Below, piece by piece: positions 3 through 36,108 of a stretch of 64,000 nucleotides of DNA (positions are counted from its first letter, which is position 1; the number at the start of each line of letters is the position of its first letter). The translations under genes and the position numbers were made by a program. A model generated the notes under the pieces. That model ran no database searches and was not told the DNA's origin. It saw nothing but the letters and a program-made list of their open reading frames with translations. The DNA is from Candidatus Parcubacteria bacterium (GTDB taxonomy: Bacteria; Patescibacteriota; Minisyncoccia; Phycocordibacterales; UBA918): the NCBI GenBank assembly GCA_021731405.1, contig JAKFXN010000004.1:1563-65562 (forward strand). The letters run 5' to 3'.

Positions 3-1241
3 GGCACCTTCACCTATGAACTTGAATTTCCCGATACAGGTGTCTTTTGGTATCACCCACATGTACGTGAAGATTACCAGCAGGAACTCGGACTCTACGG
101 TAATTTTGTTGTCGAAGAGCCAGAATACTGGAACGATGTCGATCAAGAGGGATACCTTGTTGTTGATGACGTTCTTGAAAACGGTGATTTTGACAAAGAT
201 GTTGTAACTAATACACTGATGGGTCGTTTTGGGGATGCCCTCCTTATCAATGACTCAGAAAATTTTACGCTCAAAGTAAAACAAGGCGAAGTTACTCGTC
301 TCTTTCTCACAAACGTCGCTAATACTCGCACGTTCGATCTCGCTTTTACAGGTGCAAAGACAAAAGTAGTGGGCGGAGATAATGGTCGCATTGAGAAAGA
401 AGTAATGATTACCGATGTCGTTATTGCTCCATCAGAACGTTACGTACTTGAAGTGTTCTACTCATTGCCGGGTACATACACCATCACGCACCGTGGAAAG
501 AAAATGGGTACGGTCGTTGTTGAGCCAAGTGGCACAAATAGAACAGCAGCATTTGAAGTACTTCGAGATAACTCTGTTGATTACGCCAGTTTACGGGGAG
601 ATATGCAGTCATTACTTGCTCGTACTCCAGACAAACAGCTTCGGCTTGATATCACTATGAAGGGTGACATGGAAAAGATGATGCAAGATATGGAGAGTGG
701 CGAAGGTATGTCCATGTCGATGGGTATGGGTGGAGATGATGAAGCGATGCGCGCCCACTGCCAGATGATGCCAAATATGGCTGGTTGCGAGAAGTATCTT
801 GATTCTACAGAGTCAGAAACTAAGACTGAGAAAGATGACGGTATCGAATGGGAGGAAGGCGACATGGCAATGATGAATAGTATGAGTACTGATGAAAATA
901 TTGAGTGGTTTATAGAAGATGCGGTTACTAAAAAAAGAAATGAGGATATTGATTGGTCCTTCAAGAAGGGCGACCTTGTGAAAATAAGCATCAAGAATGA
1001 TGAAAATGGTATGCACCCAATGCAGCACCCGATTCACTTCCACGGTCAGCGCTTCGTAGTGCTCAGTCGTGACGGTGTAACCAATGACAACCTGCAGTGG
1101 AAAGACACCGTATTGATTCCTCGGGGCCAGACGGTCGATATTCTGGTTGAGATGAGTAATCCTGGCGAATGGATGGCACATTGTCATATTGCTGAACACT
1201 TGGAGTCTGGCATGATGTTCGACTTTACAGTAACTGAATAA
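3..1241 (+). CDS. multicopper oxidase, 5'-partial (open from window start), with a Met-rich insert
   Basis: Frame 3 is open from nt 3 and continuous with the listed ORF 219..1241. It has the WYHPH copper-site motif near the start and C-terminal HCHIAEHLESGMMF (the MCO type-1/trinuclear Cu motif). A Met-rich segment MSMSMGMGG resembles CueO/CopA Met-rich inserts. Confidence 0.8.
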   Translation, partial: GTFTYELEFPDTGVFWYHPHVREDYQQELGLYGNFVVEEPEYWNDVDQEGYLVVDDVLENGDFDKDVVTNTLMGRFGDALLINDSENFTLKVKQGEVTRLFLTNVANTRTFDLAFTGAKTKVVGGDNGRIEKEVMITDVVIAPSERYVLEVFYSLPGTYTITHRGKKMGTVVVEPSGTNRTAAFEVLRDNSVDYASLRGDMQSLLARTPDKQLRLDITMKGDMEKMMQDMESGEGMSMSMGMGGDDEAMRAHCQMMPNMAGCEKYLDSTESETKTEKDDGIEWEEGDMAMMNSMSTDENIEWFIEDAVTKKRNEDIDWSFKKGDLVKISIKNDENGMHPMQHPIHFHGQRFVVLSRDGVTNDNLQWKDTVLIPRGQTVDILVEMSNPGEWMAHCHIAEHLESGMMFDFTVTE

Positions 1242-1252
1242 TCAAATATCGT

Positions 1253-2077
1253 ATGTCTTATAAAAAAATTATGTATGGGTCTGTCCTGGCAGGAATCGTA
1301 GTGGTAAGCGCTGTATCGTTTTGGTCACGAAGAGACACGACTATTCCTGATGCTCCAGCTGGAAATTCCAATACTGTCACCATTAATGACGTGATGAGTA
1401 TTGTCTCTCCGACCACTGACACCGTTACAGAAGTTACGGTGTCAGCTGTCACAATGCCTGAACCTGGCTTTATTGTCGTACGCGAAGTTGATGACACACG
1501 ACTAGGACAAATTGTCGAAATCAGTAGCTACCTTGAAGCTGGTATGCAAACTAATATCACTGTTCCGCTAGGAGACGAACCAAGACCAACCGATAGTCTT
1601 GTGGTCATGGTATACGGAGATGCTAAGAATGACAAAGTCATGAACGACCTCGATCGCCCAGTGCGAACAGTCAGCAATCTCCCGATTGCTTACTATGTAC
1701 AAAGTGGTCAATCCGTTCCCATCGATATTTTAGCTAATGGCTTTCAAGCTGAAGCTATAGCGATGATGGAAATGGGAAAAAGCATGCCGGGCATGGCCAT
1801 GCCGATGGAAACAATCCGCTATACCAATGAAGGCTATGTGCCCGCGAACATAACGGTTAAGGCAGGTACCATGGTGATGTTTGTAAATGAAAGTGATCAA
1901 GATATGTGGGCTGCTTCAAATGGTCATCCGGCTCACACGGATTTGCCAACCTTTGATCAATTTGAGTTTTCACCAAAAGGTAGCCAGTATGTCTACACCT
2001 TCGATCAGGTCGGGTCTTGGAAGTATCATGATCATATTGCACCAATTTATGGCGGAGTTATTACTGTCACTGAATAA
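1253..2077 (+). CDS. membrane-anchored/secreted cupredoxin-like copper protein, Met-rich
   Basis: N-terminal TM helix. The C-terminal segment GHPAH..WKYHDHIAPIYGGVITVTE resembles type-1 Cu ligand spacing. The Met-rich AMMEMGKSMPGMAMPME segment and C-terminal tail resemble the upstream MCO. Confidence 0.5.
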   Translation: MSYKKIMYGSVLAGIVVVSAVSFWSRRDTTIPDAPAGNSNTVTINDVMSIVSPTTDTVTEVTVSAVTMPEPGFIVVREVDDTRLGQIVEISSYLEAGMQTNITVPLGDEPRPTDSLVVMVYGDAKNDKVMNDLDRPVRTVSNLPIAYYVQSGQSVPIDILANGFQAEAIAMMEMGKSMPGMAMPMETIRYTNEGYVPANITVKAGTMVMFVNESDQDMWAASNGHPAHTDLPTFDQFEFSPKGSQYVYTFDQVGSWKYHDHIAPIYGGVITVTE

Positions 2078-2086
2078 TAATTACGT

Positions 2087-2800
2087 ATGTTATTAGGAAT
2101 TAAAAGTACAAAAACGTTACTGTTACGACATCTAGGTGTGGCGATTGCGGGTATCCTTGCGGTCACATTGGTCTGGCAGGTAAATAGCACATGGAGTCCC
2201 GATATGCGACTCTGGAAAGCGTTTGGTGGAGGATCATTCTTTTTGCTCTGGTTTGCGCTATTTATTGGACCTGCCGCTCGGGTCTGGCTACCACTCCAAC
2301 GTTTCGTTTCGTTTCGTCGCGAAGCAGGAGTATGGTTTTTTCTGATTGCAGTGGTGCATTCGTACCTCATTCTTGATGGGTGGGTACGTTGGAGTGTCTG
2401 GGAGTTTTTTGGGTATCAATTTATCCCCGAAACAGAGATGTATATGCGAGTTGAGTCCGGATTTGGTCTCGCGAACTTGGCTGGATTTGTAGCTCTGACG
2501 TTTGCGCTTACTTTGGCGGCGACATCATTTGATCGGGCAATTAACTTTCTAGGTGTGTCATCGTGGAAATGGCTACATTCGTTCTCGTACTTGGTGTTTT
2601 ATCTCAGTGCTATCCACGTCCTGTACTTTGCCTTCATTCACTACACACCATCGCTTTTGCGAGCAGTCTTAGGGCAACCGACGAACTATCCCGATAATCC
2701 GCTCAAGTTTTATTATCTAGCAGCATTTCTAAGTGTGCTCTTGGTGCAAATTATTGCCTTTATTCTGACAGTTCGTAAACAAAGAAATAGTGGTTGGTAA
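2087..2800 (+). CDS. ferric-reductase-like transmembrane domain protein (bis-heme b, MsrQ/FRE-type)
   Basis: About 6 TM helices. Conserved His pairs in TM helices (VVHSYLIL; LHSFSYLVFYLSAIHVLYFAFIH with H-x13-H spacing) are typical of PF01794-type heme ligation. Confidence 0.5.
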   Translation: MLLGIKSTKTLLLRHLGVAIAGILAVTLVWQVNSTWSPDMRLWKAFGGGSFFLLWFALFIGPAARVWLPLQRFVSFRREAGVWFFLIAVVHSYLILDGWVRWSVWEFFGYQFIPETEMYMRVESGFGLANLAGFVALTFALTLAATSFDRAINFLGVSSWKWLHSFSYLVFYLSAIHVLYFAFIHYTPSLLRAVLGQPTNYPDNPLKFYYLAAFLSVLLVQIIAFILTVRKQRNSGW

Positions 2801-2802
2801 GT

Positions 2803-3483
2803 ATGTACTTTGAAACACAAAAAATATCCCATCAGTTGGTTGCAAAGAACACCTACGAGGTCGTCTTCAAACGTCCGAAAGGTTTTGTATTTACCGTTGG
2901 TCAGTATACACAAGTTGCACTTCAGCACCTGATTCATCCAGATCCCAAAGGACGGTCGCGTCAGTTTTCAATTGCAACCTCGCCACTGAATCTTACCCAA
3001 ATCGCAGTCGTGTTTCGTGATACTGGTAGCGGCTTCAAACGGACATTGCTTGAATTACCTGTCGGTTCATTAGTTACCCTAGAACAAGGAGCGGGGAGTT
3101 TTGGTTTGCCTATAGTCCCAACAAAGCCTCTGGTCCTTGTGGCTGGTGGAGTCGGTATTGCACCATTCATTAGTTATATTCGCACGATAGCTGTCACAAC
3201 ACTACCGCAACCTATAACGTTGTTGTATGGTAATCAGCATCCTGAAAGTGCAGCTTATCGGAATGAAATAACTTTGTTTGCAAAAAAGTTTCAACAGTTC
3301 AGACTTGAAGAAATCTACAAGCAACCTACTCCTGCGCTATTCGCAAAATACGCAAACAAATTACATTCGGCAACGTGGTTTGTGGTTGGTCCGCCAGGCA
3401 TGGTAGCGACCACTGTGTATGGACTGGAAGCTGCTGGAGTCCACCCGAACTCGATTATTAAAGAATCATTTGATGGATACTAA
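2803..3483 (+). CDS. FNR-like FAD/NAD(P)-binding oxidoreductase domain protein
   Basis: RQFSIATSP (the RxYS FAD-binding motif), GGVGIAPF (the NAD(P)-binding GGxGxxP motif) and C-terminal VVGPPGM. The reading frame opens with TTG at 2794, overlapping the stop of the upstream gene; the likely ATG is at 2803. Confidence 0.6.
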   Translation: MYFETQKISHQLVAKNTYEVVFKRPKGFVFTVGQYTQVALQHLIHPDPKGRSRQFSIATSPLNLTQIAVVFRDTGSGFKRTLLELPVGSLVTLEQGAGSFGLPIVPTKPLVLVAGGVGIAPFISYIRTIAVTTLPQPITLLYGNQHPESAAYRNEITLFAKKFQQFRLEEIYKQPTPALFAKYANKLHSATWFVVGPPGMVATTVYGLEAAGVHPNSIIKESFDGY

Positions 3484-3591
3484 AATAGTTAAAAAATGTA
3501 ATGTCCAAAATTATTAAACTAATACCATTGTCATAATGTTAACTAACAAAACCGCTCACTATTGTGAGCGGTTTTGTTATACGTACTATCT

Positions 3592-4278
3592 TTATAATCC
3601 AGTCAGCAATTTTTTCATTAGTTGAATCTCCTCAGTCTGTGTTTCAACTATTGCTTTCGATAAATCAGTAATCTCTTTATGTTCAATATACGGCTGGACA
3701 CTTTGCGCCATCATAACTGCTCCCATATGGTGCATGAGCATGTCTTCCAAGAACACCTTATCAAGTGCTGCTCCACTGAGTTTTGATAGGTCCCGCATCA
3801 TTGGTTCATAATCGTTAGGATCAGCAACATACGCTTCTCCATACCATTCCTGATACCAGCCTTTCATCATGGCGATTTCTTTCTCTTGAGCTACAATGAT
3901 GTCTTCCGCTAACTTCTTAATCTCAGGCGTTGAGCCACCACGAGCAATGACTTCTTTGGCAGTATCAACTGCTTCTTGATGGTGTGGAAGCATACCTTCA
4001 AGAAACTCTCGTTCGCTTTTTACCATCATGGCACTGTGATCCATGCCTCCCATCATACCCATACCAGAATTGGATTCGCTGGTTGGAGAGGTTGGATTAC
4101 CCATAAGTGAACCATCGGGCATACGGTGCATACCAGCCGGTACGTCATCTTGAGTATTCATATCCATGTTCATACCCATTGAATTGTCGGTAGACTTGCT
4201 CGTGCCAAAGCTATACGAAACTGCTCCGATGACTAATACTGCTAATCCTATAATTATTGCAACTGATTGATTTTTCAT
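3592..4278 (-). CDS. DUF305-family periplasmic protein (copper-resistance associated), Met-rich
   Basis: Signal/TM N-terminus. Paired HH motifs (LEGMLPHHQEAV; LEDMLMHHMGAVMM) are typical of DUF305. Met-rich MGMNMDM.. region. There is a paralog at 26126..26788. Confidence 0.7.
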   Translation of the reverse strand: MKNQSVAIIIGLAVLVIGAVSYSFGTSKSTDNSMGMNMDMNTQDDVPAGMHRMPDGSLMGNPTSPTSESNSGMGMMGGMDHSAMMVKSEREFLEGMLPHHQEAVDTAKEVIARGGSTPEIKKLAEDIIVAQEKEIAMMKGWYQEWYGEAYVADPNDYEPMMRDLSKLSGAALDKVFLEDMLMHHMGAVMMAQSVQPYIEHKEITDLSKAIVETQTEEIQLMKKLLTGL

Positions 4279-4292
4279 AAATAATTTATTTG

Positions 4293-4841
4293 TTACATGA
4301 CCATCATGGTCATACTATTAAACATCACGAGCATCCAGAGACACATAAGTATCATAAAACTAGCTTCAATAAGCGTGACGGTTGAAAGCGGCAGCTTAAA
4401 ATACGTTCCGAGGCACACACAGTGCAGTGTCTCTTTTTTCATCATTGACTGGATTGCTCCATACAGACTAGCACTGTATATAAAGAGCGTGATGAGTGTT
4501 GCAGGTAGAATAATGATCTGGAGAATAAAGAGAATACCTAAAGTGATTTCAAGAAACGGATACGACTGGGCATAGGCAATACTTCGTTTCGCTAATGGAT
4601 CGTACTTTGCAAATCCATCCGCAAAACCAACGACATCAGTGAGTTTAATGAGTCCAAAAAATACTAGTACCCAGCCCATGAGGTGAGACATATAGTCGGG
4701 ATACATGTGCCATTGTGCACTATATACAGACACTATGGCAGCTACTATATACAGGAGGGCAATCGGCCAATATGACCAGATAGGTACCTTGGCGGTATTA
4801 TGAACTCGTACTTCGTGATGGTTTGTTACTGTATGTTCCAT
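4293..4841 (-). CDS. integral membrane protein with conserved HCVCLGTYFKLP CxC motif (putative metal-handling; DUF4396/MauE-like)
   Basis: 4-5 TM helices. It is about 60% identical to the paralog at 26800..27348, and both sit between csoR and the DUF305 gene. Confidence 0.6.
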   Translation of the reverse strand: MEHTVTNHHEVRVHNTAKVPIWSYWPIALLYIVAAIVSVYSAQWHMYPDYMSHLMGWVLVFFGLIKLTDVVGFADGFAKYDPLAKRSIAYAQSYPFLEITLGILFILQIIILPATLITLFIYSASLYGAIQSMMKKETLHCVCLGTYFKLPLSTVTLIEASFMILMCLWMLVMFNSMTMMVM

Positions 4842-4851
4842 ATGATTAACG

Positions 4852-5187
4852 TTATTTTTCTAAGGTTTTACCTAATGTGTAAAAAGTGACTGCTCCGACT
4901 CCCCACGCAAACGGTAGCCAGAGTGGTATTGGTAATACGCCGGCGTTGCTCCAAACTTGCACTCGATCAATGCTAGTCAGTAATAGTTCGATTGCTAACC
5001 CAAGTGAAAATCCGATAACATATAAGCAGAGAATCACTTTCTCTCTTTTTATATTTCTTAAGATGTAGAGTGAGTACAGTACGACAAGTACTAACGGTAC
5101 ATATTCGTTACCATGGAATAACACCTCAGTTGCAAAGAATACTGCTAGTAGACAGACATACTTAAGTAAAAGAAAAGTTTTGTTCAT
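4852..5187 (-). CDS. small integral membrane protein
   Basis: 111-aa ORF with 3 predicted TM helices, located inside the csoR cassette. No paralog in the second cassette. Confidence 0.45.
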   Translation of the reverse strand: MNKTFLLLKYVCLLAVFFATEVLFHGNEYVPLVLVVLYSLYILRNIKREKVILCLYVIGFSLGLAIELLLTSIDRVQVWSNAGVLPIPLWLPFAWGVGAVTFYTLGKTLEK

Positions 5188-5195
5188 ACCTGCTA

Positions 5196-5462
5196 CTATT
5201 TTCTTTTTAACTGGTAGACTCGCAAAATTTCTTCAGTAGCTTTGGCAGCTTTTCCAACTTTAATTTGGTTCACAACACAGTTACTAAGGTGTTCTTCAAG
5301 TAATACATCTTCAATGTTTGAAAGTGCTTGCTTGATGGCAGAGGTTTGGGTAATGACATCAATACAGTACGTTTCTTTCTCAATCATACCTTGCAAGCCA
5401 CGCACTTGACCTTCGATGATCTTAAGTCGACGAATTAGTTTTTTATGTGATTCTTTCATCAT
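5196..5462 (-). CDS. csoR: CsoR/RcnR-family (DUF156) copper-sensing transcriptional repressor
   Basis: 88 aa, with the C-H-C signature (YCIDV...EEHLSNC). Near-identical paralog at 27350..27616. A palindromic operator lies directly upstream. Confidence 0.8.
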   Translation of the reverse strand: MMKESHKKLIRRLKIIEGQVRGLQGMIEKETYCIDVITQTSAIKQALSNIEDVLLEEHLSNCVVNQIKVGKAAKATEEILRVYQLKRK

Positions 5463-5470
5463 GAGGAATA

Positions 5471-5488
5471 ATACCCCCTTGGGGGTAT
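5471..5488. promoter_or_regulatory. CsoR-type operator palindrome ATACCCCC-TT-GGGGGTAT
   Basis: Perfect 8-2-8 inverted repeat, 9 nt upstream of the csoR start. It resembles the known B. subtilis CsoR operator (TACCC..GGGTA) and is repeated at 7743..7760 and 27625..27642. Confidence 0.55.
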
Positions 5489-5512: not shown

Positions 5513-7732
5513 CTAATTGTCAGCCGTTAAGTCTTTCTCTACTCGCTTCAGCAGCACTGCGTTAACCGCTACGATAATTGAAGATATGCTCATTAAAAGC
5601 GCAGCGAATTCTGGACGAAGCATAATACCGAAACTCGGATACAAGATTCCACCAGCAACTGGTATAGCTAGAACATTGTAAATTGAAGCCCAGAAAAGAT
5701 TTTGTTTCATTTTTCGAACTGTTGCCTTACTTAAGGTTATTGCCCTAAGAATGTCTAACGGGTCAGATTTCATAAGGACCACTTTTGCTGTTTCAATCGC
5801 TACGTCAGTGCCCGCACCAATTGCGATGCCAACGTCAGCTTGAGCAAGTGCTGGAGCATCATTAACGCCGTCACCAACCATTGCGGTAAATTTTCCTTCT
5901 TTCTGGAGTTTTTTCACATACCCAGCTTTATCTGCAGGCATCACTTCCGCAAATACTCTCTCTATACCAATTTGACTCGCCACTTTATCTGCTGTCGTTT
6001 TGTTGTCGCCGGTGATCATGGCAATTTCAATTCCTAAAGCCTTTAACCGCTCCACAGCTTTTATAGCATTTTGTTTTATTGGATCTTGCGCTCCTATCAC
6101 TGCTTTAATAGCACCGTCGACTGCCAATATCATAATTGTTTCTCCTCTTTCCAAAAACTCATTTATTTTCGGCTCCAAAGTGCTGAGAGTAATGTTATTT
6201 TCTATCATGAGCTTTACGGTACCAATAAGCAGAGATTTTCCATCTACAACAGCTTTTACTCCTAAGCCAGACAGGTTTTCAAATTTATCAACTGATTCTG
6301 GTAGCGTGAGGTCACGTTTTTTAAGCTCCTCAAGTACGGCACCTGCCAACGGGTGAGATGACTTCGCTTCTGCCGCGCCAACAAAGCGAAGCGCCTCACC
6401 TGCATCATATCCATTTATCGTGGCAACATCTGTAATTTTTGGCTTTCCTTCAGTGAGCGTGCCAGTTTTATCGAGAACTATTGCTTGAATCTTTGAGACT
6501 TGTTCAAGTGTTGTTGCGTCTTTAATGAGAATATTATGTCTTGCTCCAATGCCGGTACCGACAGCAACTGCCGTCGGGGTAGCAAGTCCAAGCGCATCTG
6601 GACACGCAATAACAATGGTGGCGATGGTAAAGGAAAGTGCCAAAAGTATCGGCACTCCGACGACAAAATACCAAATAACAAAAACCAAAAGACCAGAACC
6701 TAAAGCACCAATGACTAGGTATTTTGCAAATCTATCAGCAATTCTTTGACCTGGAGCTTTCGAGTTTTGGGCTTCTTCAACGAGGCGAACAATCTGAGCA
6801 AGAGCTGTATCTTTACCAATTTTTGTTGCTTTAAATTTAACAGATCCAGTAGTATTGATTGATCCGCCGATCACCGGATCCCCAGTCTTTTTAGGAGTAG
6901 GGATTGATTCCCCGGTAACTAAAGATTCATCGATAGCAGTTTCTCCTTCTATTATCTCCCCATCAACAGGCACCTTGTCGCCCGGCTTGAGGATAATGAT
7001 GTCTCCAAGCTGGATATCTGAAGTAGAAACCATTACCTCCTTCCCATCTTTAAAAACTCTGGCTTGGGGCGGTACCAGATTGAAAAGTGCCTGAAGAGCG
7101 TCAGTTGTTCCGCGACGAGACTTCATCTCCATCCAGTGTCCGAAGAGAACAAAAGTAATGAGCATGGCGGCCGCTTCGTAGTATGAATCTGTACTGCCAA
7201 TTACAGTAAGTAAAATACTAAAACCATACGCCGCAGTAATACCAACAGCAATGAGCACGGCCATATTGAGGACTCTTTCTTTCAATGCGAAATAGGTCGA
7301 GTACAGAAAAATCCAGCCCGAATAAAAGAATACTGGTGTTGTTAAAATAAAGAGAAGCCACGGGAGTGGCATTGGAGAAGGAAGATTGAGCTTTAGAAAC
7401 TCAGTGCCGAGTGGCGAATACAGAATTATAGGAATCGTGAGTACAAGTGCAAAAAAGAATTTATTTCGAATATCTATCTCCATCAACCGAGCCATCTCAC
7501 GACCCGCAAGTCCTGTATGGTCCATGCCCATAGTCATAGACATACTCATCTTAAATTTCCCCCACATACTCATCTTAGAGGAGTCTCCCATTACATGACC
7601 AGAGTGAGCGCCGTGGTCTATGGTCTTTTCATTCTTTACGAGCATCATCCAGCACTTCGGACATCTGCCAGGTTTGTCTTTTTTCACACCTGGATGCATC
7701 GGACAAGCGTATAGTTTTTTATTGTTTGTCAT
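5513..7732 (-). CDS. copA: Cu(I)-translocating P1B-type ATPase
   Basis: CPC motif in TM6 (IACPDALGLATP), DKTGTLT, GDGVNDAPAL. N-terminal CPMHP...CPKC heavy-metal-binding domain plus a His/Met-rich stretch. The start is set at the Met of MTNNKK because the upstream operator lies inside the longer listed ORF. Confidence 0.9.
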   Translation of the reverse strand: MTNNKKLYACPMHPGVKKDKPGRCPKCWMMLVKNEKTIDHGAHSGHVMGDSSKMSMWGKFKMSMSMTMGMDHTGLAGREMARLMEIDIRNKFFFALVLTIPIILYSPLGTEFLKLNLPSPMPLPWLLFILTTPVFFYSGWIFLYSTYFALKERVLNMAVLIAVGITAAYGFSILLTVIGSTDSYYEAAAMLITFVLFGHWMEMKSRRGTTDALQALFNLVPPQARVFKDGKEVMVSTSDIQLGDIIILKPGDKVPVDGEIIEGETAIDESLVTGESIPTPKKTGDPVIGGSINTTGSVKFKATKIGKDTALAQIVRLVEEAQNSKAPGQRIADRFAKYLVIGALGSGLLVFVIWYFVVGVPILLALSFTIATIVIACPDALGLATPTAVAVGTGIGARHNILIKDATTLEQVSKIQAIVLDKTGTLTEGKPKITDVATINGYDAGEALRFVGAAEAKSSHPLAGAVLEELKKRDLTLPESVDKFENLSGLGVKAVVDGKSLLIGTVKLMIENNITLSTLEPKINEFLERGETIMILAVDGAIKAVIGAQDPIKQNAIKAVERLKALGIEIAMITGDNKTTADKVASQIGIERVFAEVMPADKAGYVKKLQKEGKFTAMVGDGVNDAPALAQADVGIAIGAGTDVAIETAKVVLMKSDPLDILRAITLSKATVRKMKQNLFWASIYNVLAIPVAGGILYPSFGIMLRPEFAALLMSISSIIVAVNAVLLKRVEKDLTADN

Positions 7733-7742
7733 TGTAACAATA

Positions 7743-7760
7743 ATACCCCTGAGGGGGTAT
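7743..7760. promoter_or_regulatory. CsoR-type operator palindrome ATACCCC-TGAG-GGGGTAT upstream of copA
   Basis: 7-4-7 inverted repeat, 11 nt upstream of the proposed copA start. Same half-sites as the csoR operators. Confidence 0.55.
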
Positions 7761-8196: not shown

Positions 8197-8286
8197 TGGC
8201 GGAGAGAGAGGGATTCGAACCCTCGAGGAGCTTTCACCCCTAACGGTTTTCAAGACCGCCGCCTTCAACCACTCAGCCATCTCTCC
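8197..8286 (-). tRNA. tRNA-Ser(TGA), CCA encoded
   Basis: The reverse complement folds as a cloverleaf: acceptor GGAGAGA/TCTCTCC, anticodon loop CTTGAAA, long variable arm, T-loop GGTTCGAATCC, discriminator G then CCA. A hairpin follows at 8161..8190. Confidence 0.85.
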
Positions 8287-26125: not shown

Positions 26126-26788
26126 CTAAAGACCACGAATCAATTGACGCATTAATTGTATTTCTGCTGTTTGAGTCTCAACGATCGCTTTAGTCAAGTC
26201 GGTCATTTCTTGATGTTCAATATACGGTTGGACGCTCTTGGCCATCATGATTGCTCCCATGTGGTGCATTATCATGTCACTCAAGAAGACTTCATCTAGT
26301 GGCGCACCACTGAGCTGAGACAGGTCGCGCATCATTGGTTCGTAATCGTTCGGGTCAGCTACATAGGCTTCAGCATACCAACTCTGATACCAATTTTTCA
26401 TCATGCTGATTTCTTTCTCTTGAGCCACCACAATGTCTTCAGCTAACTTTTTAATTTCTGGAGTTGAACCGCCACGTTCAATTACTTCTTTGGCAGTGTC
26501 TACTGCTTCTTGGTGGTGGGGAATCATGCCTTCAAGAAACGCCCGCTCACTTTTGACCATCATCGTGCTGTGATCCATCCCATTCATCATACCCATCTCG
26601 CCTTCAGCGGGGGCATTTCCCATAAGTGAGCCATCAGGCATACGGTGCATTCCAGCCGGTACAGACATGTCATTAGTCTGCATTTGAGAAGTGTACTTAC
26701 CGGCAGGAGAACCCCACAGGGCGTAACCCAGAGCTAACCCAACTCCGACAGCGAGAATACTAATTACAATAATTGATTGATTTTTCAT
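26126..26788 (-). CDS. DUF305-family periplasmic protein (second copy)
   Basis: About 70% identical to 3592..4278 over the C-terminal 150 aa, with the same HH motifs. Confidence 0.7.
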   Translation of the reverse strand: MKNQSIIVISILAVGVGLALGYALWGSPAGKYTSQMQTNDMSVPAGMHRMPDGSLMGNAPAEGEMGMMNGMDHSTMMVKSERAFLEGMIPHHQEAVDTAKEVIERGGSTPEIKKLAEDIVVAQEKEISMMKNWYQSWYAEAYVADPNDYEPMMRDLSQLSGAPLDEVFLSDMIMHHMGAIMMAKSVQPYIEHQEMTDLTKAIVETQTAEIQLMRQLIRGL

Positions 26789-26799
26789 ACAAATTTTTA

Positions 26800-27348
26800 T
26801 TACATGGCCATGTGAGCCATTTCATTAATCATTAAGAGCATCCACAGACACATCATTACCATAAAACCAGCTTCAAGGATGGTGACGGTAGAAAGTGGGA
26901 GTTTGAAGTATGTGCCCAGGCAAACACAGTGAAGGTCTTCCTTTTTGCGGAGCGATTGTATGGCACCGTACAAACTCGCGCTGTATATAAAAAGAGTAAT
27001 AAGCGTGATAGGAATAGTGAGGAGTTGCAAGATAAACAGTACCCCGAGCGAGATTTCCAGAAACGGATACATCTGTGCATAGGTAATGCTCCGTTTGGCT
27101 AGAGGGTCATACTGACCAAACCCTTTGGCGAAGCCTGCTATGTCTGACAACTTGATGGCCCCAAAAAGCACTAACACAAAGCCCATCAGGTGTGACATGT
27201 AGTCTGGGTAAGTGTGGAATTGAATCGTGTAGAGGGCAAAAAGAGCAGAGAGTAAGTAGATGCATGCAATCGGCCAGTACGACCAGACACTTACTTTAGT
27301 TACGTCGTGCACGTGAACTTCGTGATGAGTGTGAGAAGAATGTTCCAT
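26800..27348 (-). CDS. integral membrane CxC-motif protein (second copy)
   Basis: Paralog of 4293..4841, sharing the HCVCLGTYFKLPLSTVT segment. Confidence 0.6.
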   Translation of the reverse strand: MEHSSHTHHEVHVHDVTKVSVWSYWPIACIYLLSALFALYTIQFHTYPDYMSHLMGFVLVLFGAIKLSDIAGFAKGFGQYDPLAKRSITYAQMYPFLEISLGVLFILQLLTIPITLITLFIYSASLYGAIQSLRKKEDLHCVCLGTYFKLPLSTVTILEAGFMVMMCLWMLLMINEMAHMAM

Positions 27349-27349
27349 G

Positions 27350-27616
27350 TTATTTTCTTTTTAGTTGATAGACCTGCAAGATTTCTTTAGTAGCCTTGTC
27401 AATTTTACCCGCTTTAATTTGGCTTACGACACAATGTTGCAGGTGGTCTTCTAATAAAATATCCTCGACATTTGAAAGAGCCTGTTTGATAGCTGAGGTC
27501 TGAGTAATTACATCAATACAGTACGTTTCATTTTCAATCATTGCTTGCAAGCCACGAACTTGCCCCTCAATTATTTTTAAACGGCGGATTAATTTTTTCT
27601 TGTCTTGTATCATCAC
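27350..27616 (-). CDS. csoR: CsoR/RcnR-family copper-sensing repressor (second copy)
   Basis: About 85% identical to 5196..5462, with the same YCIDV / H..C signature. Confidence 0.8.
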   Translation of the reverse strand: MMIQDKKKLIRRLKIIEGQVRGLQAMIENETYCIDVITQTSAIKQALSNVEDILLEDHLQHCVVSQIKAGKIDKATKEILQVYQLKRK

Positions 27617-27624
27617 CCATAAGT

Positions 27625-27642
27625 ATACCCCCTAGGGGGTAT
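27625..27642. promoter_or_regulatory. CsoR-type operator palindrome ATACCCCC-TA-GGGGGTAT
   Basis: Perfect 8-2-8 inverted repeat, 9 nt upstream of the csoR-2 start. Confidence 0.55.
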
Positions 27643-32671: not shown

Positions 32672-33064
32672 GCCTTGAGACCGTCTTTTGTGGAGCAGAA
32701 AACATTTTTTTTACCCTGAACACTATGCAAGCCCGCAAACGGTTGCTGTAACTGGTTTTTGAAAAAAGTTATCCACACAAATAAGCAGGGGATACAATAA
32801 AAAAAGCTTTAGGTTAGCCATTTGCTAAAATGTGAACGCTTTTTTAAAGAATGGTATTATCTAGGGACGCACGAGTCTCTCCACCGTGTGTCGGAGGTAA
32901 CTATGACACGCTTGTATTTCAAGCTATGCAACTAGAACGCATGGTGTTGTCTATAGCTACGTCATCTTTCTTAAACCTAATTGAGCAGTACACACACGTG
33001 TACGCATCACCGTCGCTTATGTTTGTGAGAGATGAGCAGAGATCTCCATTTAATAAATTTATTC

Positions 33065-34390
33065 ATGTCTAAAAGTATGGAAATCAAAAGTATTCGTAAA
33101 CGAGATGGATCAGTTCAAGAATTCAACATCGACAAAATCGAAGGTGCTATTCTGAAGGCTCTCTACGAAACGAAGGAGGGGGAGGCAGCTGATGCAAAGC
33201 GTGTCGCTGAACTCGTTCACCAAAAAACGATTGCCATGTGTGTACAAGCTGCAACAGCGGCGCCTGACGACCCAAAAGCAAAGAAGTGTGTGGATGGACA
33301 TCCGGCGGTGGAGGAAGTCCAAGACTTGGTGGAGCAGGCGCTCATGGAGCTCGACTACTTCGAGACTGCCAAGGCATACATCATTTATCGTAACGCGCGA
33401 AAGAAACTGCGTGAGCGAGATATCTTTAAGAAGCGGACAAACCTCAAGCCGTACGAATATCCAGAACTCTACGAGTATGTGAGTTCGGTGCGACACTCAT
33501 ACTGGATTCATACTGAGTTTAACTACACGAGTGATGTGAACGACTTCCATGTGAACGTGTCTGCGGCAGAACGAAATACTATCAAGAACGCCATGCTTGC
33601 TATCGCACAGATTGAAGTAGCAGTGAAGACCTTCTGGGGAGACATCTACAAAAAAATGCCGAAGCCAGAAATCGGTGCGGTTGGATTTACTTTTGCAGAA
33701 AGTGAAGTCCGTCATGCTGACGCCTACTCACACCTGCTTGAGATTCTTGGTCTCAATGAAGAGTTTGAAAAGATTACCCAGGTGCCAGTAATGCAAGAGC
33801 GTATTAAGTACCTAGAAAAGACTATCACCCTTGCGCGGACTGACGAAAACCGCCAGTACATGCACTCTGTGCTTCTGTTCTCGCTCTTTATCGAGCATGT
33901 GTCGCTCTTCTCACAGTTCCTGATTATGATGTCTTTCAACAAGCATCGAAACCTCTTTAAGGGTATTAGCAACGCGGTGGAAGCAACGTCTAAGGAGGAG
34001 CAAATTCACGGCATGTTTGGTATCGACGTTATCAATACCATCAAGAAGGAACACCCAGAATGGTTTGACGATGCGTGCAAAGAAATGATTATCAAAGCCT
34101 GTCACGAAGCCTTTGCAGCTGAGAGTAAGGTAGTAGATTGGATTTACGAAGCAGGGGAACTCGATTTCTTGCCATCAGCCAACGTGAAGGAGTTTATTAA
34201 GCATCGATTCAACAACTCTTTGGTAGCTATCGGACTACCACGTATCTTTGAAGTAAGTGAAGCCCTGCTTGAGGAAACAGATTGGTTTGATAATGAGGTA
34301 ATTGCCACAAAGCATGTTGATTTCTTCCACAAGCGCTCAATCAACTACAATAAGCGAAGTGCGAGTGTAACGAGTGACGATTTGTTTTAA
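33065..34390 (+). CDS. nrdB: ribonucleotide reductase class I beta (R2) subunit with an N-terminal ATP-cone
   Basis: The N-terminal ~90 aa (IKSIRKRDGSVQEFNIDKIEGAILKA) match the ATP-cone fold. The rest is a ferritin-like diiron R2 with FAESEVRHADAYSHLLE and EEQIHGMFG Fe-ligand motifs. Confidence 0.85.
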   Translation: MSKSMEIKSIRKRDGSVQEFNIDKIEGAILKALYETKEGEAADAKRVAELVHQKTIAMCVQAATAAPDDPKAKKCVDGHPAVEEVQDLVEQALMELDYFETAKAYIIYRNARKKLRERDIFKKRTNLKPYEYPELYEYVSSVRHSYWIHTEFNYTSDVNDFHVNVSAAERNTIKNAMLAIAQIEVAVKTFWGDIYKKMPKPEIGAVGFTFAESEVRHADAYSHLLEILGLNEEFEKITQVPVMQERIKYLEKTITLARTDENRQYMHSVLLFSLFIEHVSLFSQFLIMMSFNKHRNLFKGISNAVEATSKEEQIHGMFGIDVINTIKKEHPEWFDDACKEMIIKACHEAFAAESKVVDWIYEAGELDFLPSANVKEFIKHRFNNSLVAIGLPRIFEVSEALLEETDWFDNEVIATKHVDFFHKRSINYNKRSASVTSDDLF

Positions 34391-34419
34391 GAGTTTGTTA
34401 GTAATTGTAATTTACGTAT

Positions 34420-36108
34420 ATGGAACCGTGGTATTGGTTGAATGACAACAGTCGGGGATTCTTAGATCGAGGATACCTCGCCCCAGGACAAACAGCGGAA
34501 GAACGAATTCGCGTAATTGCAGAAGCGGCTGAGAAGTTTCTCGGACGCCCTGGTTTTGCTGACAAATTTTATGAGTACATGGGGAAGGGGTGGATTTCAC
34601 TCGCATCTCCAGTGTGGTCAAATTTTGGCGTAAAGAAAGGACTACCAATCAGTTGCTTCGGTTCGTACGTGGCAGACAGTATGGGGAGTATTCTCTATAC
34701 CAATGCAGAAGTAGGGATGATGAGTAAGTTTGGCGGTGGATGCTCCGGCTACTTTGGTGATCTTCGTGAACGAGGCTCTGGCATTTCTGACAATGGACAT
34801 TCATCGGGTTCAGTACACTTCATGCAGCTCTTTGAGACGTTGGTGGATGTGGTGAGTCAGGGGTCAGTTCGTCGCGGACATTTTTCACCGTACCTTCCGG
34901 TTGAACACCCAGACATCATGGAATTTTTGGATATCGGAACAGAAGGAAACCCAATCCAAAAGCTCACCCACGCTGTTACGGTAACTGATAAGTGGATGGA
35001 AGATATGATTGGGGGAGATGAGGAGAAGCGGGCTATCTGGGCACGAGTCATACAAAGACGCGGAGAAATGGGATATCCGTATATCTTGTTTAAGGATACT
35101 GCCAACAAAAACACGGTAGATACCTACAAAGACAAAGGACTTACTATCTACGCTAGTAACATGTGTAGTGAAATCATGCTCCCGTCTCGTGAAGACTGGT
35201 CGTTTGTGTGTTGTCTCTCATCTATAAACCTTCTCCACTACGATGCCTGGAAAGATACCGACTTGGTAGAAACAATGATTTCTTTCTTGGACGCAGTAAT
35301 GGAAGACTTTATCCAGAAGCTTGAAGCAATGCGCGATAGTGAAGATTCTGATAAGCGTCTTGGTTTTAGTTTTATGGAACGAGCATACAACTTTGCTAAG
35401 GCAAACCGCGCCCTTGGACTCGGTGTACTCGGCTGGCACTCACTACTGCAAGCCAAGCACCTTTCATTTGAAGCAGAAGAAGCACAAGCACTCAACGTAG
35501 AAGTATTTAAATTAATAAAGGAGCAAGCTGACGCAGCAAGTAAGAAGCTTGCTGTAGAACTCGGTGAACCAGAAGTACTCAAGGGATATGGTCGCCGCAA
35601 CACTACGCTTCTGGCTATTGCGCCAACTACTTCAAGTGCGTTCATCTTAGGACAGGTATCGCAAGGAATTGAACCTATCTGGTCAAACTGTTACATGAAG
35701 GACGTCGCGAAGATGAAGGTGACTATCAAGAACCAATCACTCGTCGCACTTTTGGCAGAGAAGGGGAAGGACACCAAAGAAGTGTGGGACAGTATTCGCG
35801 ATGCAGACGGTTCAGTCCAGCATCTCGATTTCCTGACGGAAAATGAACGAGCCGTCTTTCGTACCTTTGCTGAGATTGACCAAGCGATGGTCATCAAACA
35901 AGCCGCTGATAGACAGGTCTATATCGACCAAGGACAGTCTCTCAACATTATGGTTGAGCCAGCGACGCCGGTAAAAGAAATCAATCAGCTTTACATCAAT
36001 GCGTGGAAGCAGGGAATTAAGTCTCTCTACTACCAGCACAGTATGAACGCCGCGCAGCAAATGGTTCGAAAGAAGCTCGCTGCAAACGCCAAAGAAGTGA
36101 AGGAGTAA
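34420..36108 (+). CDS. nrdA: ribonucleotide reductase class I alpha subunit (short form, no ATP-cone)
   Basis: SNMCSEIMLP and CCLSSINL active-site Cys motifs. 562 aa with no N-terminal cone domain. Confidence 0.9.
   Translation: MEPWYWLNDNSRGFLDRGYLAPGQTAEERIRVIAEAAEKFLGRPGFADKFYEYMGKGWISLASPVWSNFGVKKGLPISCFGSYVADSMGSILYTNAEVGMMSKFGGGCSGYFGDLRERGSGISDNGHSSGSVHFMQLFETLVDVVSQGSVRRGHFSPYLPVEHPDIMEFLDIGTEGNPIQKLTHAVTVTDKWMEDMIGGDEEKRAIWARVIQRRGEMGYPYILFKDTANKNTVDTYKDKGLTIYASNMCSEIMLPSREDWSFVCCLSSINLLHYDAWKDTDLVETMISFLDAVMEDFIQKLEAMRDSEDSDKRLGFSFMERAYNFAKANRALGLGVLGWHSLLQAKHLSFEAEEAQALNVEVFKLIKEQADAASKKLAVELGEPEVLKGYGRRNTTLLAIAPTTSSAFILGQVSQGIEPIWSNCYMKDVAKMKVTIKNQSLVALLAEKGKDTKEVWDSIRDADGSVQHLDFLTENERAVFRTFAEIDQAMVIKQAADRQVYIDQGQSLNIMVEPATPVKEINQLYINAWKQGIKSLYYQHSMNAAQQMVRKKLAANAKEVKE

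What the first reader, a model, noticed from the sequence alone, without database searches (positions are those of the whole stretch)
3..3483. Copper redox cluster: multicopper oxidase, cupredoxin, and a ferric/cupric-reductase-like heme-membrane domain separated from its FNR-like partner
A Met-rich MCO and a Met-rich cupredoxin are followed by a 6-TM bis-heme ferric-reductase-like domain gene. Its stop overlaps the start region of a separate FNR-like FAD/NAD(P) domain gene; the two reading frames overlap 2794..2800. Together the two products reconstitute the NOX/FRE domain pair that is normally a single polypeptide. Either this is a genuine two-gene split NOX-like reductase, which would be unusual, or a frameshifted single gene. 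Its position next to the oxidase suggests a Cu(II)/Cu(I) or Fe redox cycle at the membrane.
Basis: partly seen in the sequence, partly recalled or inferred. Interest (0 to 1): 0.55.

Follow-up and report, generated by a model that had tools for sequence, protein, structure and literature searches.

The report
Two-gene MsrQ-like/FNR-like electron exporter in copper island
The haem-membrane gene and the flavin/NAD(P)H reductase gene next to it are a real, conserved two-gene pair, not a broken single gene. They resemble the known E. coli MsrQ plus Fre system and sit in a copper-stress gene island of an uncultured Patescibacteria-type bacterium.

Summary
The four genes are present as described. 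The "split versus frameshift" question is settled: the FRD gene (2087..2800, 237 aa) and the FNR-like gene (ATG 2803..3483, 226 aa) are separate genes.

- Two independent metagenome assemblies carry the identical junction.
- Homologues keep the same lengths down to about 50% identity.
- In 29 related loci the two are separate ORFs, with variable spacers, all three relative frames, or a third gene between them.
- Both genes are under strong purifying selection (ω 0.04 and 0.11).
- Fused forms exist: L023 (470 aa) and proteins of 433-464 aa.

The "bis-haem NOX/FRE" reading is not supported. Only three of the four canonical His are present, and Arg77-Arg78 replace the inner TM3 His. Residues R77, R78, H91, H164 and H177 align with E. 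coli MsrQ R77, R78, H91, H151 and H164. That is the MsrQ/STEAP signature: one outer haem plus an inner flavin pocket.

The partner is a minimal, Fre-sized FNR module. The pair is therefore an operon-encoded variant of the known MsrQ+Fre two-component system, without MsrP. It lies in a CsoR/CopA/CopM/MCO copper island.

The external electron acceptor is not established. Candidates are a Cys-less His-rich cupredoxin, Cu(II), or the MCO.

The parts
3..1241 (+). Multicopper oxidase, C-terminal 412 aa (gene cut by the window edge), with a Met-rich insert; CueO-like
   Evidence: Pfam Cu-oxidase_3, Cu-oxidase and Cu-oxidase_2. NCBIfam CueO E=7.6e-33, below the cut-off. The full 561-aa gene with an N-terminal TM anchor is in L001 7470..9155.
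1253..2077 (+). Membrane-anchored protein: DUF7282 domain, Met-rich linker and a Cys-less cupredoxin-fold domain with invariant HPxH...HDH
   Evidence: Pfam DUF7282 at 56 bits; Cupredoxin_1 weak. Invariant residues in a 34-sequence alignment. AF2 model pLDDT 79. Foldseek hits to amicyanin, plastocyanin and purple cupredoxin.
2087..2800 (+). MsrQ/YedZ-type ferric-reductase-domain membrane protein, 237 aa, six TM helices. Predicted outer haem b ligands are H91 and H177. The predicted inner flavin pocket is R77, R78 and H164.
   Evidence: Pfam PF01794. NCBIfam MsrQ E=1e-8. Alignment with E. coli MsrQ. AF2 model. Best PDB fold matches are STEAP1, STEAP2 and STEAP4, ahead of NOX5, NOX2 and DUOX.
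2803..3483 (+). Minimal FNR-like flavin/NAD(P)H oxidoreductase, 226 aa (Fre-sized). Motifs: RQFS, GGVGIAP, GPPGM and a C-terminal aromatic (...FDGY).
   Evidence: Pfam NAD_binding_1. NCBIfam hits to flavohaemoprotein, BenC, Fre and LuxG, all below cut-offs. PDB sequence hits to the flavohaemoglobin reductase domain and the SpNOX dehydrogenase domain. Motifs shown.
3548..3575 (.). Bidirectional intrinsic-terminator hairpin between the convergent FNR and CopM genes; it ends the + strand operon
   Evidence: Fold of -26.1 kcal/mol, z = -8.2; sequence read.
3592..4278 (-). CopM/DUF305 Met/His-rich copper-binding protein
   Evidence: Pfam DUF305 E=3e-42. NCBIfam CopM at 95.1 bits, above the cut-off of 90.
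4293..4841 (-). MauE/DoxX-like membrane protein
   Evidence: Pfam MauE.
5196..5462 (-). CsoR-family copper-sensing repressor
   Evidence: Pfam Trns_repr_metal E=4e-25. NCBIfam RicR E=5e-20.
5472..5487 (.). CsoR-operator-like palindrome TACCCCCTTGGGGGTA upstream of csoR
   Evidence: Pattern search found 3 sites in 64 kb against 0 expected.
5513..7699 (-). CopA-type P1B copper ATPase (start taken as the ATG at 7699, as called in L001)
   Evidence: Pfam E1-E2_ATPase, Hydrolase and HMBD; gene call in L001.
7744..7759 (.). CsoR-operator-like palindrome TACCCCTGAGGGGGTA upstream of copA

Best explanation
Genes 2087..2800 and 2803..3483 encode a two-component transmembrane electron exporter of the MsrQ/Fre kind.

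Proposed mechanism:
1. The cytoplasmic 226-aa FNR-like protein oxidises NAD(P)H.
2. It passes electrons through flavin to the cytoplasmic face of the six-TM MsrQ-like protein. Arg77, Arg78 and His164 there form a flavin pocket in place of the inner haem.
3. Electrons then reach a single b-type haem held by His91 (TM3) and His177 (TM5) near the outer face.
4. From the haem they go to an extracytoplasmic acceptor.

The two genes are the last in a tightly packed + strand operon and are probably translationally coupled (2-nt spacer). In some relatives the same two proteins are fused into one chain. That implies they work as a complex, with the FRD C-terminus next to the FNR N-terminus.

In Patescibacteria the pair is an accessory module of a copper-stress island that carries CopA, CsoR, CopM, DsbA, cupredoxin-like proteins and sometimes an MCO.

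What is shown: gene integrity, conservation of the split, the residue signature, the fold and the genomic context.

What is inferred: cofactor content, direction of electron flow and the acceptor. My best guess for the acceptor is copper bound to, or presented by, the adjacent membrane-anchored Cys-less cupredoxin/Met-rich protein, or free Cu(II), as with the STEAP metalloreductases. I put that specific step at only about 0.35.
For: Real, separate genes:
- FRD homologues are 237 aa and FNR homologues are 226 aa down to about 50-60% identity, often on the same contigs.
- In 29 of 32 related loci the FNR gene follows the FRD gene as a separate ORF. Spacers are 2-37 nt in all three relative frames, with an in-frame stop when the frames coincide. 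In 11 of these loci a 185-aa gene lies between them.
- The junction is identical in independent assemblies L001 (JGI) and L002 (Logan).
- dN/dS against L005 is 0.04 for FRD and 0.11 for FNR.

Functional coupling:
- Fused FRD::FNR forms exist: L023 (470 aa, in the same operon context) and P0209, P0218 and P0243. The last three match both halves at about 37-42% identity.

MsrQ type:
- R77, R78, H91, H164 and H177 are invariant and align to E. coli MsrQ R77, R78, H91, H151 and H164.
- The roles of those residues in MsrQ are described in PMC12525009. The Arg-for-His signature of YedZ/STEAP is described in PMC3591440.
- The best PDB fold matches are STEAP1, STEAP2 and STEAP4 (TM 0.53-0.58), ahead of NOX5, NOX2 and DUOX.
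- NCBIfam gives an MsrQ hit at E=1e-8.

FNR partner:
- The RQFS, GVGIAP and GPPGM motifs and the terminal aromatic are present.
- There are hits to Fre and LuxG and to the SpNOX dehydrogenase domain and flavohaemoglobin.

Copper context:
- CopA, CsoR, CopM or an MCO lies within ±6 kb in 18 of 32 loci.
- CsoR-like boxes are present in the window.
Against: - No cofactor, activity or interaction has been measured. The haem and flavin assignments rest on alignment to E. coli MsrQ (27-30% identity) and on an AF2 model of moderate confidence (pLDDT 74).
- The NCBIfam MsrQ and Fre scores are far below the equivalog cut-offs (34.9 against 130 bits; 42 against 230 bits). The proteins are relatives, not orthologues.
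- The acceptor is unknown. The DUF7282-cupredoxin also occurs in copper islands that lack FRD/FNR.
- The MCO is present in only 6 of about 32 loci.
- Actinobacterial FRD-mid-FNR loci showed no copper genes with my probes.
- No CsoR box was found upstream of the + strand operon in 7.9 kb of L001.
- A Cu(II) to Cu(I) reductase in a copper-resistance island is counter-intuitive, because Cu(I) is the more toxic form.
Confidence: 0.75

Rival explanations
1. A single NOX/FRE-like gene broken by a frameshift, either a sequencing error or a pseudogene.
For: The two ORFs are in different frames with only a 2-nt spacer. Fused homologues exist.
Against: - The junction is identical in independent assemblies.
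- 29 related loci keep two ORFs with varied spacers and frames, and 11 of them have an intervening gene.
- Hundreds of 237-aa and dozens of 226-aa homologues exist.
- ω is 0.04 and 0.11.
- The stop and start positions are conserved in the alignments.
Confidence: 0.01
2. A true split bis-haem NADPH oxidase (NOX) that reduces O2 to superoxide or H2O2 at the outer face.
For: - The domain pair FRD + FNR is present.
- There is weak NAD_binding_6 similarity and a sequence hit to the SpNOX dehydrogenase domain.
- The genome has an O2-dependent class I RNR, so the organism meets O2.
Against: - The fourth haem-ligand His is replaced by an invariant Arg77.
- The NOX FAD motif H[PSA]F[TS][LIMV] is absent; the protein has RQFS.
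- STEAP structures outrank NOX structures in the fold search.
- By the NOX filters of PMC5676040 it fails two of three sequence tests.
Confidence: 0.05
3. An MsrPQ-type protein-repair system. The pair would feed electrons to an extracytoplasmic reductase that repairs oxidised Met or Cys in the many Met-rich copper proteins of the island. The catalyst would be a non-molybdenum protein such as the DsbA/p198 pair, the rhodanese, or the His-rich cupredoxin.
For: - The pair has MsrQ-like residues.
- The island is rich in Met-rich proteins: the MCO, CopM and the cupredoxin linker.
- DsbA and a CxxC membrane protein co-occur in most Patescibacteria loci.
Against: - No MsrP homologue was found in the 64-kb window or in 41 related loci.
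- No known haem-to-thiol or haem-to-sulfoxide reductase domain was identified.
- DsbA and p198 also occur without FRD/FNR.
Confidence: 0.12
4. A minimal NAD(P)H-to-O2 chain: FNR, then MsrQ-like haem, then cupredoxin(s), then MCO, then O2 reduced to water. It would serve for O2 or Cu(I) detoxification and NAD+ regeneration in a non-respiring bacterium.
For: - In the window, L005, L006 and L020 the MCO and cupredoxin genes lie beside FRD-FNR in one operon. In L021 a plastocyanin-type cupredoxin with Cys and a smaller MCO flank FRD-mid-FNR.
Against: - The MCO is absent from most loci.
- The adjacent cupredoxin lacks the type-1 Cys needed for a classical electron carrier.
- There is no evidence of interaction.
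Confidence: 0.1
5. An assimilatory ferric reductase for iron uptake, as proposed for some MsrQ-like clusters.
For: The FRD family name. MsrQ-like clusters with the VIT1 iron transporter are described in PMC8238504. STEAPs reduce Fe(III) (my knowledge).
Against: No iron transporter, Fur-type or siderophore genes were seen in any of the annotated loci. The context is copper genes.
Confidence: 0.05

Closest known systems
E. coli MsrQ (YedZ) + Fre, the "two-component NOX-like system" (Juillan-Binard et al. 2017, as cited and discussed in PMC5676040, PMC8238504 and PMC12525009)
   Same: - A free-standing six-TM FRD protein is paired with a separate, minimal (about 230 aa) FNR-family flavin reductase.
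- R77, R78, H91 and the H-x12-H pair in TM5 align exactly.
- The FRD C-terminus is cytoplasmic.
   Different: - Here the reductase gene is immediately downstream in the same operon. In E. coli, msrQ and fre are unlinked.
- Some relatives are fused.
- No MsrP molybdoenzyme partner is present.
- Two long conserved extracytoplasmic loops (residues 100-125 and 184-206, including invariant H185) are absent from E. coli MsrQ.
- The context is a copper island in Patescibacteria.
- Identity is only 27-30%, and the NCBIfam cut-offs are not reached.
STEAP1-4 metalloreductases (eukaryotic YedZ-related FRD proteins)
   Same: - The window protein shares the YedZ/STEAP signature (Arg for the first canonical His), which in STEAP goes with a single outer haem plus an inner flavin site. 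This is described in PMC3591440 and PMC12525009.
- STEAP structures are the best PDB fold matches.
- STEAPs reduce Fe(III) and Cu(II) (my knowledge). That makes a cupric reductase role conceivable here.
   Different: - STEAP2-4 carry an N-terminal F420-type NADPH oxidoreductase domain on the same chain, not a separate FNR-fold protein.
- STEAP has Gln where this protein has H164.
- Sequence identity is 13-17%.
Bacterial and eukaryotic NOX/FRE (for example SpNOX, csNOX5, NOX2)
   Same: FRD + FNR-fold dehydrogenase architecture; the NADPH-binding motif GVGIAP; electron flow from cytoplasmic NAD(P)H to the outside.
   Different: - NOX is a single polypeptide with four haem-ligand His and two haems.
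- NOX has the FAD motif H[PSA]F[TS][LIMV].
- The window proteins fail these tests.
[quoted passage not shown] 2021, PMC8238504)
   Same: These are PF01794 + PF00175 combinations used for extracytosolic electron transfer. The fused relatives found here (P0218, P0243, L023) have that architecture.
   Different: - In the window the two domains are separate genes.
- No ApbE or FMN_bind gene appears in the annotated Patescibacteria loci.
- The neighbours are copper-homeostasis genes.
CopC/PcoC-type and other non-blue cupredoxin-fold copper-binding proteins. This comparison applies to the adjacent 1253..2077 product and rests on my knowledge.
   Same: Cupredoxin-like β-sandwich; His/Asp-type site instead of a type-1 Cys site; Met-rich Cu(I)-type segment; location in a copper-resistance cluster.
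   Different: No sequence relationship was shown. The extra DUF7282 domain and membrane anchor are not in CopC. Metal binding is untested.

Membership tests
NOX/FRE (filters of Hajjar et al. 2017, PMC5676040) | Four haem-ligand His: H-x12-14-H in both TM3 and TM5 | tested here: not met
   Only H164-x12-H177 is found. TM3 has H91, with the invariant Arg77 at the position of the other His. This holds in all 17 family members checked.
NOX/FRE (filters of Hajjar et al. 2017, PMC5676040) | NOX-specific FAD motif H[PSA]F[TS][LIMV] | tested here: not met
   The motif is absent from the window FNR and from all 17 relatives. They carry R-x-[FL]-S, which is RQFS in the window.
NOX/FRE (filters of Hajjar et al. 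2017, PMC5676040) | [quoted passage not shown] | tested here: met
   GVGIAP at residues 116-121.
NOX/FRE | FRD and dehydrogenase domains on one polypeptide | tested here: not met
   There are two genes here and in 29 related loci. Fused relatives do exist.
MsrQ/YedZ group of the FRD superfamily | First canonical TM3 His replaced by a conserved Arg (Zhang et al. 2013, PMC3591440) | tested here: met
   R77 is invariant and aligned to E. coli MsrQ R77.
MsrQ/YedZ group of the FRD superfamily | Haem ligands equivalent to MsrQ H91/H164, and flavin-pocket residues R77, R78 and H151 (PMC12525009) | tested here: met
   Window H91/H177 and R77, R78 and H164 are invariant and aligned. Actual cofactor binding cannot be tested here.
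MsrQ (orthologue, NCBIfam NF003831 equivalog) | Score at or above the curated cut-off (130 bits) | tested here: not met
   34.9 bits, E=1.1e-8.
MsrPQ system | Periplasmic molybdoenzyme MsrP encoded alongside | tested here: not met
   tblastn with E. coli MsrP gave no hit in the 64-kb window or in 41 related loci.
Ferric_reduct domain (Pfam PF01794) | Score above the gathering threshold (28 bits); six TM helices | tested here: met
   32.4 bits. Six long helices in the AF2 model. STEAP and NOX are the top folds.
FNR-fold flavin reductases (Fre-like) | R-x-[YF]-[ST] flavin motif, GGxGxxP nucleotide motif, and NAD_binding_1 above the cut-off | tested here: met
   RQFS (53-56) and GGVGIAP (114-120) are present. 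PF00175 scores 40.6 bits against a cut-off of 22. Pfam FAD_binding_6 was not detected in the window protein but is detected in relatives.
Fre (orthologue, NCBIfam NF005963 equivalog) | Score at or above the curated cut-off (230 bits) | tested here: not met
   42.2 bits; 16% identity to E. coli Fre.
Type-1 (blue) cupredoxins | Cupredoxin fold | tested here: met
   Foldseek hits to purple cupredoxin, amicyanin and plastocyanin, TMt 0.73-0.80, probability 1.00.
Type-1 (blue) cupredoxins | His...Cys...His...Met copper ligand set | tested here: not met
   No Cys anywhere in the domain. The invariant residues are H225, H228, H259, D260 and H261.
CueO-type multicopper oxidase | Three cupredoxin domains with a Met-rich insert; equivalog score at or above 525 bits | tested here: inconclusive
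   Domains and the Met-rich insert are present. The NCBIfam CueO score is 114 bits on a truncated sequence.

The most novel reading that the evidence does not exclude
In quinone-poor, non-respiring Patescibacteria, an operon-encoded (sometimes fused) Fre-like reductase plus a single-haem MsrQ-like flavocytochrome would be a dedicated NAD(P)H-driven outward electron pump for the copper-stress island. Its acceptor would be a previously undescribed Cys-less, His3Asp-type cupredoxin (DUF7282-cupredoxin), or copper held by it. The result would be a bacterial STEAP-like cupric reductase, or, together with the MCO, a minimal extracytoplasmic NAD(P)H-to-O2 chain. Either way it would be independent genomic support for the flavin-reductase route of MsrQ reduction that is debated in E. 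coli.
Probability: 0.25. Interest if true: 0.6.

Novelty: new variant of a known kind. Interest (0 to 1): 0.35.

Why it matters
- It shows that the FRD/FNR "split" is a stable natural arrangement that interconverts with fused forms within one family. This is direct comparative evidence on how NOX-like enzymes are assembled from modules.
- A dedicated, co-transcribed Fre-like partner for an MsrQ-type protein supports the NAD(P)H/flavin-reductase route of electron supply. That holds in organisms that lack MsrP. Whether they also lack quinones was not tested here.
- It ties an MsrQ/STEAP-type reductase to bacterial copper homeostasis. That suggests a testable extracytoplasmic copper-redox or repair function.
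- It flags several uncharacterised partners: the Cys-less cupredoxin, the CxxC membrane protein p198 and the "mid" subunit.

Tried and rejected
- **PDB sequence search for the FRD:** a profile search against PDB sequences gave no hit even at E<=10. Structural comparison was needed instead.
- **Model coordinates:** these are not exposed, so His-His distances could not be measured.
- **"mid" protein:** an hhalign comparison of "mid" with the DUF7282-cupredoxin showed no relationship. Pfam found nothing for mid, p198 or p151.
- **Promoters and terminators:** the scan of the + strand operon was uninformative; counts were at shuffle level.
- **CsoR box:** none was found upstream of the + strand operon.
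- **att-type repeat:** a search for a repeat of the tRNA-Ser end upstream of the island found nothing convincing.
- **Literature:** searches for DUF7282 (0 papers) and for CPR copper or ferric-reductase systems found nothing specific. Juillan-Binard 2017 itself was not held.
- **DUF7282-cupredoxin as obligate partner:** I considered this and downgraded it after finding the protein in copper islands without FRD/FNR.
- **TTG at 2794 as the FNR start:** rejected because of homologue N-termini and public gene calls.

Full report
**What is in the sequence**

Region 3..3483 holds four co-directional, tightly packed ORFs.

- **3..1241:** the C-terminal 412 aa of a multicopper oxidase. It matches Cu-oxidase_3, Cu-oxidase and Cu-oxidase_2 and has a Met-rich insert. 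The gene is cut by the window edge. The near-identical contig L001 shows the full 561-aa protein with an N-terminal membrane anchor.
- **1253..2077:** a 274-aa membrane-anchored protein with a DUF7282 domain, a Met-rich linker and a C-terminal domain.
- **2087..2800:** a 237-aa Ferric_reduct (PF01794) membrane protein.
- **2794/2803..3483:** an FNR-like protein (NAD_binding_1).

A strong bidirectional hairpin at 3548..3575 ends the operon. The convergent − strand carries CopM/DUF305, a MauE-like protein, a 111-aa membrane protein, CsoR and CopA. CsoR-operator-like palindromes (TACCCC-N4-GGGGTA) lie upstream of csoR and of copA. There are 3 such sites in 64 kb against 0 expected.

**Split gene or frameshift?**

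The evidence says the two are separate genes.

- The FRD stop is TAA at 2798..2800. The conserved start of the next gene is the ATG at 2803. The TTG at 2794 is only the first possible start codon in the open frame.
- FRD homologues are almost all 237-238 aa down to 59% identity.
- FNR homologues are 226-234 aa down to about 40% identity. Several pairs share contigs and have consecutive locus tags.
- A scan of one genome per species returned 33 loci from Patescibacteria (Paceibacteria, Nomurabacteria, Azambacteria), Saccharibacteria, Spirochaeta and Actinomycetes such as Cellulomonas, Actinotalea and Microcella.
- Of the 32 loci with enough sequence (near-duplicates and the window-identical contigs included), 30 have an FNR homologue downstream of the FRD on the same strand.
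  - In 18 it is directly adjacent, with spacers of 2-37 nt. All three relative frames occur, and when the frames coincide a stop codon separates the genes.
  - In 11 a conserved 185-aa membrane-anchored gene ("mid") lies between them. In L020 this gene is fused to the FRD C-terminus.
  - In one (L023) FRD and FNR form a single 470-aa ORF.
- The window junction is base-for-base identical in two independent assemblies, a JGI metagenome and a Logan assembly of SRR1636513.
- Window versus L005 gives dN/dS of 0.04 for FRD and 0.11 for FNR.

A frameshift artefact or a pseudogene is therefore excluded as far as comparative data can exclude it.

**Relation to fused forms**

An exhaustive HMMER search with the FNR protein shows three arrangements for its closest relatives outside the family (35-45% identity):
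- free-standing proteins of about 225-235 aa;
- C-terminal domains of 433-496-aa proteins whose N-termini are Ferric_reduct domains;
- N-terminal domains of PAS/histidine-kinase sensors.

The fused proteins P0218, P0243 and P0209 match the window FRD at 37-39% identity from the very N-terminus (MLLGIKS...), and they match the FNR at about 38-42%. Fused and split forms therefore belong to one family.

L023 sits in the same DsbA-p198-cupredoxin-DUF7282cup operon context as the split forms. Its FRD is as similar to the window FRD (55%) as many split members are. This points to a simple loss of the stop codon. It also argues that the two proteins act as one complex.

**What kind of FRD is it?**

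- Seventeen family members share invariant R77, R78, H91, H164, H177 and H185.
- In an alignment that includes E. coli MsrQ and the fused relatives, R77, R78, H91, H164 and H177 remain invariant. They fall on MsrQ R77, R78, H91, H151 and H164. H185 is specific to the split family.
- According to PMC12525009, MsrQ His91 and His164 ligate the single outer haem. His151 stacks on the FMN, and Arg77 and Arg78 bind the FMN. Arg77 occupies the place of a haem-ligand His in NOX and DUOX.
- Zhang et al. (PMC3591440) define YedZ/STEAP proteins by exactly this Arg-for-His replacement.
- The NOX filters of Hajjar et al. (PMC5676040) fail on two of three sequence counts: four His and the H[PSA]F[TS][LIMV] motif. 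Only the NADPH motif (GVGIAP) passes.
- The AF2 model (pLDDT 74, pTM 0.74) has six long helices. Its topology puts R77, R78 and H164 at the cytoplasmic side, H91 and H177 toward the outside, and the C-terminus in the cytoplasm.
- The best PDB fold matches are STEAP1, STEAP2 and STEAP4 (TM 0.53-0.58), ahead of NOX5, NOX2 and DUOX.
- NCBIfam gives a sub-threshold MsrQ hit (E=1e-8).

The "bis-haem" description is therefore not supported. The protein is an MsrQ/STEAP-type FRD with a predicted single haem and a flavin pocket.

Zhang et al. found that "long" (three-domain) bacterial forms carry all four His. The fused relatives here instead carry the Arg signature. That is a modest departure from their observation.

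**The FNR-like partner**

- It is a minimal FNR module of Fre size (226 aa against 233 aa).
- It has R53-Q-F-S56, G114-G-V-G-I-A-P120, GPPGM and a C-terminal ...F-x-G-Y. All are conserved across the family.
- Sequence neighbours include flavohaemoglobin reductase domains, BenC, Fre and LuxG, and the SpNOX dehydrogenase domain.
- It is not a Fre orthologue (16% identity).

**Context and the likely acceptor**

- In Patescibacteria the pair sits at the end of a conserved operon. The order is DsbA, p198 (a polytopic protein with GCAACG in a TM helix), a small cupredoxin, optionally p151, a rhodanese and an MCO, then DUF7282-cupredoxin, FRD and FNR.
- CopA, CsoR, CopM or an MCO lies within ±6 kb in 18 of 32 loci. 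An MCO is present in only 6.
- The DUF7282-cupredoxin is immediately upstream of the FRD in most Patescibacteria loci.
- Its C-terminal domain has a cupredoxin fold but no Cys. The invariant residues are W219, H225, H228, D235, Q236, H259, D260 and H261. This suggests a His/Asp metal site rather than a blue-copper centre.
- That protein also occurs in copper islands lacking FRD/FNR. So FRD/FNR is an optional add-on to the island, not an obligate partner of the protein.
- Actinobacterial loci have FRD-mid-FNR and no copper genes detectable with my probes.
- No MsrP homologue exists in the window or in any locus.
- No ApbE or FMN_bind genes appear in the annotated Patescibacteria loci.

The external acceptor therefore remains inferred. 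I favour copper, either bound to the neighbouring cupredoxin or Met-rich proteins or free as Cu(II), by analogy with the STEAP metalloreductases. The rivals are redox repair of extracytoplasmic proteins and an MCO-terminated NAD(P)H-to-O2 chain.

**Comparison with known systems, and novelty**

The closest known system is E. coli MsrQ + Fre, described as a two-component NOX-like system (discussed in PMC5676040 and PMC12525009).

Shared features:
- a free-standing MsrQ-type FRD;
- a separate minimal FNR-fold reductase.

Differences:
- the two genes are linked in an operon, and some relatives are fused;
- there is no MsrP;
- the window FRD has extended, conserved outer loops;
- the pair lies in a copper island in Patescibacteria.

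MsrQ-like proteins with C-terminal NAD-binding domains were catalogued by Méheust et al. (PMC8238504) in flavinylation clusters.

I rate this a new variant of a known kind, of moderate interest. It also gives comparative support for a flavin-reductase electron supply to MsrQ-type proteins. The biochemical function is still untested.

Noticed in passing
window 26126..27641 (- strand): A second, paralogous copper cassette: csoR2 (27350..27616), a MauE-like gene (26800..27348) and a CopM/DUF305 gene (26126..26788). It has its own CsoR-type palindrome, TACCCCCTAGGGGGTA, at 27626..27641. It duplicates the 3592..5487 cassette, apart from the 111-aa gene.
   Followed up: partly
window 51020..54562 (+): A 1180-aa class-I (Ile/Val/Leu-type) tRNA synthetase with a histidine-phosphatase (His_Phos_1) domain inserted at aa 529-697, between the two halves of the catalytic domain. 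This is an unusual insertion.
   Followed up: no
window 33032..36108 (+): Class I ribonucleotide reductase in which the ATP-cone is on the small (NrdB-type) subunit (33032..34390). The large subunit (34420..36108) gave no ATP-cone hit. An O2-dependent RNR implies the organism meets oxygen.
   Followed up: no
L001 5705..6301 (about 1.6-2.2 kb left of the window start; homologues in L003, L005, L007, L040 and others): A 180-198-aa polytopic membrane protein with a GCAACG (CxxC) motif inside a TM helix. It always follows the DsbA-like gene. It has no Pfam family. It is a candidate DsbB/VKOR-like redox partner of DsbA.
   Followed up: partly
L021 6707..7264; L032 6743..7303; L020 6712..7263 (fused to FRD); also L024-L034: A conserved 185-aa single-pass membrane protein ("mid") encoded between FRD and FNR in Saccharibacteria, Actinobacteria and Spirochaeta. 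It is fused to the FRD C-terminus in L020. It has no Pfam hit and no conserved His, Cys or Met. It may be an accessory or acceptor subunit.
   Followed up: partly
L001 1..4391 (left of the window) and window 8197..8286; L042 9189..10478: The copper island is flanked by a large serine recombinase and an N6/N4 DNA methyltransferase on one side and by tRNA-Ser on the other. The JGI contig ends inside that tRNA. Another Patescibacteria copper island (L042) also abuts a serine recombinase. This suggests a mobile island, but no att repeat was found.
   Followed up: partly
P0369, P0394, P0436 (homologues of window 1253..2077); L001 7171..7464: In some genomes a rhodanese domain (active-site CRSG) is fused to the C-terminus of the DUF7282-cupredoxin. 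In the window lineage a 97-aa rhodanese is a separate gene upstream of the MCO.
   Followed up: no
P0207, P0212, P0217 (relatives of window 2803..3483): The same FNR-like module occurs as the N-terminal domain of PAS/histidine-kinase proteins (P0212, P0217) and of a PAS plus sugar-epimerase/dehydratase protein (P0207). The kinase fusions may be redox-sensing kinases.
   Followed up: no
L007 6524..7009; L013 9576..10244; L015 9512..10111; L019 4327..4995; L020 8010..8765: A second, divergent FNR-like paralogue (30-36% identity) lies 0.1-5 kb downstream of the FRD-FNR pair in several loci. None was found in the first 12 kb of the window.
   Followed up: no
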